From the NCBI GenBank assembly GCA_951406725.2, contig OX597840.1:23064001-23128000 (forward strand): 64,000 nt of DNA. The letters run 5' to 3'. A program made the translations under genes and the position numbers. Source of the stretch: Octopus vulgaris. Its lineage: Eukaryota. A model generated the notes under the pieces. It was given only the letters and a program-made list of their open reading frames with translations. It had not been told where the DNA came from and ran no database searches. Below, piece by piece: positions 1 to 15,668 of the stretch (positions within the stretch are counted from its first letter, which is position 1; each line of letters starts with the position of its first letter).

Positions 1-1071
1 AGTAGAGAATGATTCACCACAGATATCACAGTGATATGGTTTCTCTCCTGTATGAACCCGTTTGTGTTGAGTTAAGTAACTGCTAGTAGAAAATGATTTA
101 CCACAGATATCGCAGGGATATGGTTTCTCCCCTGTATGAATACGCTTGTGTTTAGTTAAGTTACTGCCAACAGAGAATGATTTACCACAGATATCACAGT
201 GATATGGTTTCTCACCTGTATGAATACGTTTGTGTTTAGTTAAGTTACTCTTTTCAGTGTAAGATTTACCACAGATATCACAGTGATATGGTTTCTCTCC
301 TGTATGAACCCGTTTGTGTTGAGTTAAGTGACTGCTAGTAGAGAATGATTCACCACAGATATCACAGTGATATGGTTTCTCTCCTGTATGAACCCGTTTG
401 TGTTGAGTTAAGTAACTGCTAGTAGAAAATGATTTACCACATATATCACAGTGATATGGTTTCTCTCCTGTATGAACCCGTTTGTGTTGAGTTAAGTGAC
501 TGCTAGTAGAGAATGATATACCACAGATATCACAGGGATATGGTTTCTCTCCTGTATGGATACGTTTATGACGAGTTAAACTACTGCCAACAGAGAATGA
601 TTCACCACAGATATCACACTGATATGGTTTCTCTCCTGTATGAACCCGTTTGTGTTGAGTTAAGTGACTGCTAGTAGAGAATGATATACCACAGATATCA
701 CAGTGATATGGTTTCTCTCCTGTATGAACCCGTTTGTGTTGAGTTAAGTGACTGCTAGTAGAGGATGATATACCATAGATATCACAGGGATAAGTTTTCT
801 CTCCTGTATGGATACGTATATGTCGTATTAACTGACTGCTACTTAAGAATGATTTACCACAGATATCACAGTGATATGGTTTCTCTCCTGTATGAACCCG
901 TTTGTGTTGAGTTAAGTGACTGCTACTTAAGAATGATTTACCACAGATATCACAGTGATATTGTTGTTCCTTTGCATGAATTTGTTTGTGTTGATTGAAT
1001 TTACTTTCTTCTAAGAATGACTCTTTGCAGATGTCACAGTCATATGATGATTTTCTTAATTCTTCCGACAT
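1..1071 (-). CDS. C2H2 poly-zinc-finger protein, copy A (3' end runs off the window; >=12 fingers)
   Basis: ATG at 1071 ([15 protein letters not shown]), same context as 8435. 84-bp CxxC..HxxxH-TGEKPY repeats read open to base 1 by manual translation. Finger 4 has CDIYG (second Cys lost). Confidence 0.88.
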
Positions 1072-1756
1072 CTCTTCAAGAAAAATAAAACTGAACCTTC
1101 AAGTTGTACAGATCAACAACTTATCAAAAATATTTCTTTTCTCACCAAAATTTATGGATATTTTTCTTCTTTTTGTTTTTATAGTTAATTCCAAACAAAT
1201 ATCACTTCTCTTATATTTCTTCTAAATGTGGTCAATGCCAATATTTAAAAATGTCGCAAATACTCTTAGGAAATCTATCAAAGTATATTTAAAACAGAAA
1301 ATTATCTCTTGCACATTCCAGACACAGAAGTAAAGAAATACTTTCTCTCCCTAGAGGAAATATTTTACTATAATTCAGCGATGTTTTATAGAAGCAGGAT
1401 TATACATTTGTAGAATATCTTTGCAGAGTCTTTCAAACATGATACGTATTGATGATTCTTTAAAAGTAAAAAATACTTTTTAGCCAATTTCATGTGATTT
1501 TCTGAAAGAATAGAAAAAATAATATAAGACATTAAGTAAGTTTAAAAGGCAGATATTCAAAAGTGCAAATTCACGACATTTCTGTTTTCATAAATTGTAG
1601 AAGTAATTTTTTATCTGAACTATTAAATTTATCCCATCTCTATTCTCAAGAGGTTTATATTACAGACATATCTATCGTAATAACACCTCCTGGACATTGC
1701 GTCTGTCCTAGAAACACACCAATATACATGTCAATGACACTAGACAGCTGATGTTT

Positions 1757-1970
1757 TCATCTGAAGGAGGTTTTCTCCATTGTATGAGTATGCTTGGGTC
1801 TAGTTAGGCAACTACTAACAGAGAATGATTCATCAATGATGTCACAGTGATATGGCTTCTCCCCTCCATGAACTCTTGTGTGAGTAGTGAAGTTACGTCT
1901 TTGATAGAATGACTTACCACAGATATTACAGTGATATGGTTTCTCCTCCAAATTAGTACGTTTGTGAACA
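1757..1970 (-). pseudogene. Degenerate ~2.5-finger C2H2 remnant (unit 1)
   Basis: [42 protein letters not shown]; Cys/His ligands lost and no MSEE leader. Confidence 0.8.
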
Positions 1971-14300: not shown

Positions 14301-14636
14301 CCATCCTCTTTCAATGCTCTTTTGATTCAATAATGGATGATTTCATGTCAAAGATTTACCATAGATGTCACATTCATAATATAGTTTCAATCATGTGTAG
14401 AGATTTTTCTGAGGTACAAGCTTGTCCTTCTGAGGGAATGTTATACAACAAATGTCACTGTGCTATGGATCCTTTGCTTAATGAATGCACCTGTGTTTAA
14501 TTAAATGATGTTTTTGTCAGAATGATTTACTGCAGATATCACAATGATATGGCTTTACACCAGTATGGATAAGTTTGTGTGTAGTTAAAATACCCTTTTC
14601 AGAGAATAATTTGCCACAGATATAACAGTGATATAG

Positions 14637-15668
14637 TTACTCACCGGTATGAATACGTTTGTGTGTAGCTAAGTTACCTGCCTGACTGAATGATTTGCCA
14701 CAGATATCACAGTGATATGGTTTCTCACCTGTATGAATATGTTTGTGTTTAGTTAATTTACTCTTTTTAGTGAAAGATTTACCACAGATATCACAGTGAT
14801 ATGGTTTCCCTCCTGTATGAACCCGTTTGTGTTGAGTTAAGTAACTGCTAGTAGAAAATGATTTACCACAGATATCACAGTGATATGGTTTCTCTCCTGT
14901 ATGAACCCGTTTGTGTTGAGTTAAGTGACTGCTAGTAGAGAATGATTCACCACAGATATCACAGTGATATGGTTTCTCTCCTGTATGAACCCGTTTGTGT
15001 TGAGTTAAGTAACTGCTAGTAGGAAATGATTTACCACAGATATCACAGTGATATGGTTTCTCTCCTGTATGAACCCGTTTGTGTTGAGTTAAGTGACTGC
15101 TAGTAGAGAATGATATACCACAGATATCACAGGGATATGGTTTCTCTCCTGTATGGATACGTTTATGACGAGTTAAACTACTGCCAACAGAGAATGATTT
15201 ACCACAGATATCACAGTGATATGGTTTCTCTCCTGTATGAACCCGTTTGTGTTCAGTTAAGTGACTGCTAGTAGAGAATGATATGCCACAGATATCACAC
15301 GGATATGGTTTCTCTCCTGTATGGATACGTTTATGACAAGTTAAACTACTGCCAACAGAGAATGATTCACCACAGATATCACAGTGATATGGTTTCTCTC
15401 CTGTATGAATCCGTTTGTGTTGAGTTAAGTGACTGCTTTTAGAGAATGATATACCACAGATATCGCAGAGATAAGTTTTCTCTCCTGTATGAACCCGTTT
15501 GTGTTGAGTTAAGTGACTGCTACTTAAGAATGATTTACCACAGATATCACAGTGATATTGTTGTTCCTTTGCATGAATTTGTTTGTGTTGACTGAATTTA
15601 CTTTCTTCTAAGAATGACTCTTTGCAGATGTCACAGTCATATGATGATTTTCTTAATTCTTCCGACAT
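14637..15668 (-). CDS. C2H2 poly-zinc-finger protein, copy C (12 fingers, 343 aa)
   Basis: Uninterrupted ORF with near-identical first finger and last two fingers to copy B, and 168 bp (two fingers) shorter. Confidence 0.93.
   Translation of the reverse strand: MSEELRKSSYDCDICKESFLEESKFSQHKQIHAKEQQYHCDICGKSFLSSSHLTQHKRVHTGEKTYLCDICGISFSKSSHLTQHKRIHTGEKPYHCDICGESFSVGSSLTCHKRIHTGEKPYPCDICGISFSTSSHLTEHKRVHTGEKPYHCDICGKSFSVGSSLTRHKRIHTGEKPYPCDICGISFSTSSHLTQHKRVHTGEKPYHCDICGKSFPTSSYLTQHKRVHTGEKPYHCDICGESFSTSSHLTQHKRVHTGEKPYHCDICGKSFSTSSYLTQHKRVHTGGKPYHCDICGKSFTKKSKLTKHKHIHTGEKPYHCDICGKSFSQAGNLATHKRIHTGE

What the first reader, a model, noticed from the sequence alone, without database searches (positions are those of the whole stretch)
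1..15668. Hypervariable finger arrays inside near-identical tandem units (PRDM9-like finger shuffling in effector-less ZNFs)
Seen: units A, B and C have ~6 kb of flank that differs only by scattered substitutions, yet their arrays differ in finger number (>=12, 14, 12) and order. Helices, [185 protein letters not shown] places an EKSNLTK finger mid-array. Scaffold codons are homogenised while variation sits mostly in the recognition helix. Known: PRDM9 and KRAB-ZNF arrays evolve this way. Inference: a two-tier diversity generator (7-kb gene amplification plus 84-bp reshuffling) producing new DNA-binding specificities from proteins with only a 9-aa leader and no KRAB/ZAD/SET domain.
Basis: partly seen in the sequence, partly recalled or inferred. 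Interest (0 to 1): 0.72.

Follow-up and report, generated by a model that had tools for sequence, protein, structure and literature searches.

The report
Octopus zinc-finger copies trading finger blocks
Four young neighbouring copies of a DNA-binding zinc-finger gene in a cephalopod (likely an octopus) have each rearranged their repeated fingers, and one likely took in a block of three fingers from a distant, now broken relative, which is the familiar way such gene clusters are thought to make new DNA-binding proteins rather than a new system.

Summary
Genes A, B and C lie in 7.2-7.4 kb tandem units whose 5.9-kb flanks differ by 2.8-3.5%, and carry 16, 14 and 12 coding fingers; a fourth sister (Z, 13 fingers) lies just upstream. 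They belong to a cluster of about 1,000 fingers in 864 kb of a cephalopod genome. Each protein is 9 residues plus fingers; family-level RNA contigs point to a non-coding first exon, so no effector domain is fused. Contact residues change about three times as often as other non-structural residues (dN/dS 2.2-2.9 in these genes, wide intervals; 0.9-1.4 cluster-wide), but the PRDM9 statistic (0.39-0.42) is ordinary for the cluster and below human or mouse PRDM9. Duplication, finger gain and loss, conversion between paralogues and selection on contacts are all published for vertebrate poly-zinc-finger clusters, and effector-less expansions for bugs; this scan noted conversion and selection at other loci of this genome. 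Verdict: a clean new example of a known kind; targets untested.

The parts
1..1071 (-). Gene A coding sequence, 5' part (ATG at 1071; runs about 296 bases past the window start; 16 fingers, 455 aa)
121..204 (-). A finger 11 (VGSNLTK): 1 of 84 bases from fingers of two distant paralogues, 7 or more from any finger of Z/A/B/C; likely imported
1072..7030 (.). Flank A-B: 5' UTR, intron and first exon of A, then 3' flank of B; 2.8% from flank B-C, 3.4% from flank C-D
7065..7235 (-). Two decaying fingers behind the premature stop of B (C>Y, nonsense codon)
7236..8435 (-). Gene B coding sequence: 9-residue leader plus 14 fingers (399 aa)
7821..8072 (-). B fingers 5-7 ([21 protein letters not shown]): 252-bp block absent from Z, A and C, likely imported from the g51045 lineage
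8436..8864 (-). 5' UTR part of the finger exon of B (429 nt, closed in all three frames); splice acceptor AG at 8866-8865; 35-codon uORF from 8856
8865..10576 (-). Inferred intron of B (GTAAGT...TTCAG); holds a remnant of two degenerate fingers near 9100-9330
10577..10900 (-). Inferred non-coding first exon of B (5' end not defined); block conserved among paralogues that ends at the donor
14466..14636 (-). Two decaying fingers behind the premature stop of C
14637..15668 (-). Gene C coding sequence: 9-residue leader plus 12 fingers (343 aa)
15669..21593 (.). Flank C-D (third copy of the 5.9-kb flank; acceptor of C at 16097)
21624..22695 (-). Gene D: same unit flank, different and frameshifted array (related to a conserved array type elsewhere in the cluster)
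51045..52160 (+). Pseudogene g51045 (stop after finger 1, later frameshift); its fingers 2-4 (51156-51407) are the closest match to B fingers 5-7

Best explanation
These are four recently duplicated, fingers-only C2H2 zinc-finger genes in a large cephalopod cluster whose arrays were likely reshaped by out-of-register recombination on the 84-bp finger repeat, within an array, between sisters and at least once from a distant paralogue, and which would thereby read somewhat different DNA sequences. Shown: tandem units at about 3% divergence; different finger number and order; identical fingers inside one array; fingers that are mosaics of two types; a three-finger block in B that is closest to an inverted pseudogene 43 kb away; open frames in all four genes. 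Inferred: unequal crossing-over made the units; unequal exchange or gene conversion, anchored in the near-identical [10 protein letters not shown] scaffold, inserted, deleted and chimerised fingers in frame; purifying selection keeps zinc ligands and frames; contact residues are free or weakly favoured to change. Untested: that these particular copies are expressed, what they bind, and whether they act on transposons.
For: Units and flank divergence. Intra-array duplication: Z5=Z6=Z9, A9=A13, B9=B11 at 0 of 84 differences. Mid-finger mosaics: Z8 VGS|YLTQ, Z13 EK|RNLAT, A2. Import into B: 8/252 mismatches to g51045 fingers 2-4 against 37/252 at best within Z/A/B/C; best non-self match among the 40 candidates scored genome-wide, 96%; the triplet is native to four colinear genes of another 5'-flank clade; B and its sister C are colinear on both sides of the block and share derived fingers there (VGSSLTC, TSSHLTE); sites private to B against those four genes: 25 of 424 in the 5' flank, 1 of 252 in the block (Fisher p=1e-4; Poisson p=0.002-0.03 allowing for constraint). 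Selection: 0 frameshifts in 4.7 kb of coding sequence against about 4.8 expected from flank indel rates (p about 0.01); in coding fingers of 464 kb dN/dS is 0.07-0.09 at structural residues, 0.43-0.47 in the scaffold, 0.9-1.4 at -1/3/6, while dead fingers give 0.76-0.78 at contacts; in Z/A/B/C contacts give 2.2 (CI 0.7-4.8) or 2.9 (1.1-6.3), 11 distinct contact changes against 8 synonymous, p=0.02. No effector: proteins are exactly 9 residues plus fingers; two RNA-type runs join the acceptor at 8864 to places where a conserved upstream block ends; all three frames between acceptor and ATG are closed.
Against: Synonymous divergence between B5-7 and g51045 is 4 of 52 sites (7.6%), the same as their 5' flanks (7.9%), so similarity alone does not date the transfer; 3 of those 4 changes are on the pseudogene side, and on synonymous sites alone the short branch to B is not significant (p=0.18). 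The 12 sites shared by B and g51045 come from two or three events and fit either history. A cluster-wide scan flagged 68 of 569 fingers as foreign-like, but for the four of five gene pairs checked the synonymous divergence matched the flanks, so most of that signal is purifying selection, not exchange. In Z/A/B/C non-contact scaffold positions give dN/dS about 0.9, so these copies may be drifting under relaxed constraint. Event counts are small and recombination violates the tree assumption. RNA evidence is from short contigs of guessed RNA runs, joints have 22-30 letters on the short side, and it speaks for the family, not these copies. Junctions of the imported block were not checked in reads.
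Confidence: 0.78

Rival explanations
1. A PRDM9-like arms-race locus: strong, continuing positive selection on contact residues with concerted evolution of the scaffold turns over specificities quickly, probably against young transposons.
For: Z, A and C rank 1-3 of 36 arrays on the three-site diversity share and 1, 4 and 6 on finger identity; contact dN/dS 2.2-2.9; octopus ZNF motifs are predicted to be enriched in TE consensus sequences (PMC10547256, passages).
Against: Four-site share 0.39-0.42 is near the middle of the region's arrays and below human, mouse and salmonid PRDM9; mean finger identity is only 83-89%; arrays are dominated by one repeated finger type (27 of 51 native fingers are xSS[H/Y]LTx), which lowers rather than raises diversity; cluster-wide contact dN/dS exceeds 1 only at the loosest cut.
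Confidence: 0.12
2. Near-neutral churn: redundant young copies whose minisatellite-like arrays mutate by slippage and unequal exchange; the contact excess is relaxed constraint plus chance, and most copies are on their way to pseudogenes.
For: Scaffold dN/dS about 0.9 in Z/A/B/C; shared premature stop; a broken finger in A; neighbours D, g27979 and g51045 are broken; 223 of 601 fingers classed in 464 kb lie in dead or short frames.
Against: No frameshift in four long frames; structural residues dN/dS 0.19-0.36; contact changes exceed other non-structural changes threefold, p=0.006.
Confidence: 0.3
3. The three-finger block in B is ancestral and was lost separately in C and in the Z/A lineage, so no transfer between paralogues is needed.
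For: Synonymous divergence to g51045 equals flank divergence; finger loss is frequent in these arrays.
Against: Needs at least two losses in the same register plus absence from D and other close relatives; B has 1 private site in 252 against 25 in 424 in the flank; the GTSF...HKW finger occurs only in B and the four donor-family genes among 1,016 fingers.
Confidence: 0.17
4. Assembly artefact: haplotypes placed in tandem or chimeric array joins.
For: Highly repetitive region; no long reads could be laid here.
Against: Four to five copies, each with roughly 80-120 private substitutions in 5.9 kb (from the pairwise counts); no gap within 40 kb; the block in B differs from its nearest match by 8 bases and sits in frame.
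Confidence: 0.05

Closest known systems
Coleoid cephalopod C2H2 zinc-finger expansion (PMC9068888, passages; PMC12513265, parts 1-2 of 7 and passages)
   Same: Large clustered family of multi-finger genes in a cephalopod genome (haemocyanin domains); 1,016 fingers in 118 arrays in 864 kb.
   Different: The parts read deal with gene counts, phylogeny and expression; 'recombination' and 'effector' do not occur in PMC12513265. Array-level mechanics and gene structure are described here.
Vertebrate poly-ZF / KRAB-ZNF young paralogue clusters (Emerson and Thomas 2009, PMC2604467, passages and section 10; mouse KZFP clusters PMC5363842 section 7; PMC12575710 passages)
   Same: Tandem duplication, finger gain and loss between paralogues, repeated finger blocks, short gene conversions between paralogues, selection focused on -1, 3, 6, many pseudogenes.
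   Different: No KRAB or other domain; first exon non-coding; here an in-frame insertion of three foreign fingers can be traced to a named donor.
PRDM9 finger minisatellite (Baker 2017, PMC5519329, passages and section 10 part 1; PMC11703093 passages)
   Same: 84-bp repeat reshuffled by unequal exchange and conversion; atypical first finger (recalled for PRDM9).
   Different: No SET, KRAB or SSXRD; diversity share 0.39-0.42 against 0.69 (human) and 0.91 (mouse); multi-copy cluster; allelic diversity unknown.
Hemipteran ZF271-like/APEZ family (PMC6444547, passages) and zebrafish FiNZ-ZNFs (PMC10547256, abstract and passages)
   Same: Lineage-specific tandem clusters with array differences and pseudogenes; ZF271-like proteins also have no domain besides fingers.
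   Different: Independent expansions; FiNZ genes carry a 28-residue coding first exon, which these genes lack.
Pseudogene-templated gene conversion (avian immunoglobulin V, trypanosome VSG; recalled)
   Same: A broken paralogue is the nearest source of a block found in an open gene.
   Different: One germline event, no ordered donor array, no sign of direction or dedicated machinery; the donor may have been intact at the time.

Membership tests
Coleoid cephalopod C2H2-ZNF expansion | Cephalopod genome | tested here: met
   38 molluscan haemocyanin beta-sandwich matches; best single-domain scores to PDB 1js8, 4yd9, 6r83, which I recall as octopus and squid; 2.8 Gb genome. Octopus rather than squid is likely, not proven.
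Coleoid cephalopod C2H2-ZNF expansion | Clustered, lineage-specific multi-finger genes | tested here: met
   81 arrays of 5 or more fingers in 864 kb; best listed homologues elsewhere 34-66% identical (120 of 7,910 shown).
Coleoid cephalopod C2H2-ZNF expansion | Expressed, mostly in nervous tissue | tested here: inconclusive
   Family-level contigs in three guessed RNA runs; copy and tissue not resolved.
PRDM9 | PR/SET, KRAB and SSXRD domains | tested here: not met
   Proteins are 9 residues plus fingers; none of these families among the 25 of 35 Pfam hits shown for C; frames closed upstream.
PRDM9 | Exceptional share of diversity at DNA-contact residues | tested here: not met
   0.39-0.42 with four sites, mid-range among 36 arrays; top three for Z, A, C with three sites; PRDM9 values (the low end of Baker's table, 0.33-0.48, overlaps).
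PRDM9 | Concerted evolution of fingers within the array | tested here: met
   Identical fingers within Z, A and B, none within C; mean identity 0.83-0.89 against a median of 0.82: present but moderate.
PRDM9 | Many alleles in populations; directs recombination hotspots | not testable with these tools
   Only short contigs of other runs were available.
KRAB-ZNF or FiNZ-ZNF | N-terminal effector encoded by an upstream exon spliced in frame | tested here: not met
   Acceptor 429 nt before the ATG, stops in all frames, in-frame stop 30 nt before the ATG, first exon without a long frame.
Lineage-specific poly-ZNF clusters (general) | Finger gain and loss between young paralogues | tested here: met
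   13, 16, 14 and 12 coding fingers at about 3% flank divergence.
Lineage-specific poly-ZNF clusters (general) | Positive selection at -1, 3, 6 | tested here: inconclusive
   dN/dS 2.2 (p=0.16) or 2.9 (p=0.017) in Z/A/B/C; 0.90, 1.29, 1.17, 1.41 (only the last significant) cluster-wide.
Lineage-specific poly-ZNF clusters (general) | Binding to transposable elements | not tested
   No motif predictor or repeat library was run.
Pseudogene-templated cassette systems | Repeated, one-way transfer from silent donors into an expressed gene | tested here: inconclusive
   One three-finger case and two single-finger cases; the cluster-wide scan could not separate exchange from constraint.

The most novel reading that the evidence does not exclude
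The whole cluster works as one shared library of finger modules: because the finger scaffold DNA is alike across about a hundred paralogues, live genes routinely take in-frame blocks of fingers from any neighbour, dead copies included, so octopus pseudogenes serve as a reservoir of DNA-binding parts for effector-less proteins under selection for new targets.
Probability: 0.2. Interest if true: 0.65.

Novelty: new member of a known kind. Interest (0 to 1): 0.34.

Why it matters
Cephalopod zinc-finger expansions are counted and mapped but their mechanics and targets are little studied. Four sisters at 3% divergence with different arrays, a defined gene structure and a traceable imported block give a compact test set for how new DNA-binding proteins arise without KRAB, and for whether they bind transposons. 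If import from pseudogenes proved routine, dead copies would have to be counted as part of the repertoire. As it stands, each ingredient has a published parallel in vertebrates or insects.

Tried and rejected
Protein searches for relatives with a longer N-terminus: residues 1-45 of B gave 3 unrelated finger proteins; a whole paralogue gave generic finger proteins, none from a cephalopod among the 120 shown; the Atlas gave generic finger clusters. None bears on gene structure. No RNA holder is on record; the RNA label of X12, X16, X17 is a guess. A cluster-wide count of exchange (91 shared runs, 13 at p<0.05; 68 of 569 fingers) was rejected as evidence of generality after synonymous divergence matched the flanks in four of five pairs. 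The 35-codon uORF as a separate effector peptide: intact in 28 of 42 acceptor-bearing copies, dN/dS 0.67 against 1.1-1.3 in shifted frames on 37 changes, no Pfam match: weak, not adopted. A splice acceptor right before the ATG was considered; an RNA-type contig runs through that place unspliced and no joint there is among those shown (28 joints not shown). No structure or complex prediction was run: it would not bear on the question. Albertin 2015 was not held. No supplementary files were opened; those of PMC10547256 and PMC12513265 may hold octopus array data.
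Full report
Setting. The window is G000:C27:23064001-23128000 in a 2.80-Gb genome of 227 contigs. The genome encodes molluscan haemocyanin (38 domain matches), whose best single-domain PDB scores are 1js8, 4yd9 and 6r83; I recall these as octopus and squid proteins, so the host is a cephalopod, likely an octopus. I fetched 800 kb around the window. A finger profile found 617 fingers in 74 arrays in the inner 464 kb and 1,016 in 118 arrays in 864 kb (lower threshold, many first fingers missed). 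The finding is one small part of a large C2H2 cluster.

Observation. The ATGs of A, B, C and D lie at 1071, 8435, 15668 and 22695 on the minus strand. The three 5.9-kb flanks differ by 2.8, 3.4 and 3.5% with 23-24 indels per pair. The helix lists for B and C are exact; A has 16 coding fingers once the upstream DNA is added, and a fourth sister Z with 13 lies 6.8 kb before the window. All four stop at the same TAA, cutting off terminal fingers that are now decaying. D has the unit's flank but another, broken array. The 5'-flank tree gives ((Z,A),(B,C)) as one clade, support 0.99. Each flank copy has roughly 80-120 private substitutions and no gap lies within 40 kb, which argues against haplotype duplication; long reads were not available.

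Gene structure. The proteins are 371, 455, 399 and 343 residues, exactly a 9-residue leader plus fingers. Contigs of two guessed RNA runs from two studies break at 8864, next to a canonical acceptor on the minus strand, and join to 10572 and 10665 (short sides of 22 and 30 letters, 'between: not known'). A block conserved in dozens of paralogues ends at 10577 in B at GTAAGT, at 10572 in one subfamily and at 10666 in one paralogue, so the joints match paralogue donors. The same acceptor motif occurs 42 times in 864 kb. Between acceptor and ATG lie 429 nt closed in all frames, and the first exon has no long frame. No effector domain can be fused through this splice. This evidence is for the family, not for each copy.

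How the arrays differ. (1) Duplication inside an array: Z5=Z6=Z9, A9=A13, B9=B11. (2) Crossover inside a finger, joining the -1 residue of one type to positions 3 and 6 of another: Z8, Z13, and A2. (3) Point changes. (4) Foreign fingers: of 61 fingers in the four arrays, five are closer to an outside gene than to any own or sister finger: A11, B5, B6, B7, B8. B equals its sister C plus 252 bp between C4 and the helix of C5, with both ends in the shared YxCDICG scaffold. The block differs at 8 of 252 bases from fingers 2-4 of g51045 (window 51156-51407, opposite strand, stop after its first finger) and at 37 from the best triplet in its own family; g51045 is also the best non-self hit among 40 candidates scored genome-wide. 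The triplet is native to four colinear genes that form their own 5'-flank clade. Against them B has 25 private sites in 424 flank columns but 1 in the 252-bp block. Against this reading: synonymous divergence to g51045 is 4 of 52, equal to the flank, and on synonymous sites alone the test is not significant. I put import at about 0.8, resting on position, parsimony and B's short branch. B8 shares a rare K>N with a lone finger 60 kb away (2 of 84 differences), which suggests a further exchange.

Selection. Using spanning trees of near-identical fingers and mutation rates from the flanks, coding fingers in 464 kb (378, arrays with 5 or more intact fingers) give dN/dS 0.07-0.09 at structural residues, 0.36-0.69 in linkers, 0.43-0.47 elsewhere, and 0.90, 1.29, 1.17 and 1.41 at -1/3/6 for cut-offs of 2, 3, 4 and 6 differences; only the last exceeds 1 significantly. 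The 223 dead fingers give 0.76-0.78 at contacts. In Z/A/B/C, with the four clearest foreign fingers left out, contacts give 2.2 (CI 0.7-4.8) or 2.9 (1.1-6.3), other scaffold positions about 0.9. Counting each change once gives 11 at 3 contact positions, 23 at 18 other positions and 8 synonymous (p=0.006 and 0.02); two of the 11 are CpG transitions. No frameshift occurs in 4.7 kb against about 4.8 expected. So frames and zinc ligands are kept, contacts are free and perhaps favoured, and the rest may be relaxed.

PRDM9 comparison. The share of amino-acid diversity at -1, 2, 3, 6 (method of PMC5519329) is 0.42, 0.39, 0.40 and 0.39 for Z, A, B, C, mid-range among 36 arrays; with three sites Z, A and C rank first to third. 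Human PRDM9 has 0.687 and mouse 0.910, though some orthologues are at 0.33-0.48; a trout copy at 0.367 was judged no longer under Red Queen dynamics. The arrays work a little like the PRDM9 minisatellite but are not PRDM9 and are not extreme.

Generality. A scan for foreign-like fingers flagged 68 of 569 in 47 genes with a sister, but in four of five pairs checked synonymous divergence (5-9%) matched the flanks while dN was 1-2%: conservation, not exchange. Routine trading across the cluster is therefore not shown.

What is known. Emerson and Thomas report selection at -1, 3, 6, finger gain and loss in 23 of 24 expansions, and short conversions between paralogues, in most genes of the chicken sets. 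Mouse clusters show duplicated and rearranged finger blocks and large segmental duplications; primate KZNFs gain and lose fingers (PMC3126818, passages). Hemipteran ZF271-like proteins expand without any other domain. Wells et al. predict octopus ZNF motifs to be enriched in TEs and find contact residues among the most variable. I found no paper on finger-block import between cephalopod paralogues in the listings of searches; subscription papers, Albertin 2015 and all supplements were not seen. This scan's own unchecked notes report conversion and contact selection at other finger loci of this genome; nothing was on file near this window.

Verdict. Real, well resolved, and of a known kind. The added value is the gene structure and the traceable three-finger import. 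Interest 0.34.

Noticed in passing
window 8749-8856 (-), and after most of the 42 acceptors in 864 kb: A 35-codon upstream ORF starts 8 nt after the splice acceptor and is intact (35 or 42 codons) in 28 of 42 copies; dN/dS 0.67 on 37 changes, no Pfam match. It may damp translation of the finger ORF.
   Followed up: partly
first finger of most genes, e.g. window 8325-8408: The leader and first finger are acidic and atypical (EESKFNQ helix) and diverge at 0.42 of the flank rate over 190 gene pairs; a candidate protein-binding module in place of an effector domain.
   Followed up: partly
window 21624-22695 and 27419-31389: Unit D carries the unit flank with another, frameshifted array; an inverted partial copy of D and its flank lies at 27.4-31.4 kb with a broken array holding five QTGNLTR-type fingers.
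   Followed up: partly
L020 and L019 (up to 12 kb before the window): Z and A are each followed by a short finger pseudogene with the same in-helix stop; this 3.7-kb piece is duplicated at 95%, so A has the 5' side of the B/C unit and the 3' side of the Z unit.
   Followed up: partly
genes at about 84, 166, 260 and 382 kb past the window start (L023, L031, L040, L052): A 13-14 finger array type (DRSSFAR...QKHHLIK) is kept in four dispersed paralogues with dN 1-2% and dS 5-9%: a constrained array inside a fast-moving cluster.
   Followed up: partly
window 43004-45623 (+) and 47977-50017 (-): Fragments that read like an LTR-retroelement gag-pol and a LINE reverse transcriptase, both broken (from translations; family names recalled, not searched).
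   Followed up: no
window 58700-61900: Several broken frames resembling IS1595/Merlin-type transposase (VEIDES motif; recalled, not searched).
   Followed up: no
window 41007-42375 and 53366-54734: A 1.4-kb direct repeat at 93.6% with mariner-like transposase remnants; in B-type flanks a very high-copy repeat near 11100-11400.
   Followed up: no
L081, L082 (G000:C27:16.19-16.25 Mb): Two haemocyanin genes lie inverted, with equal scores domain by domain, on the same contig; three more on C5 and a divergent one on C28.
   Followed up: no
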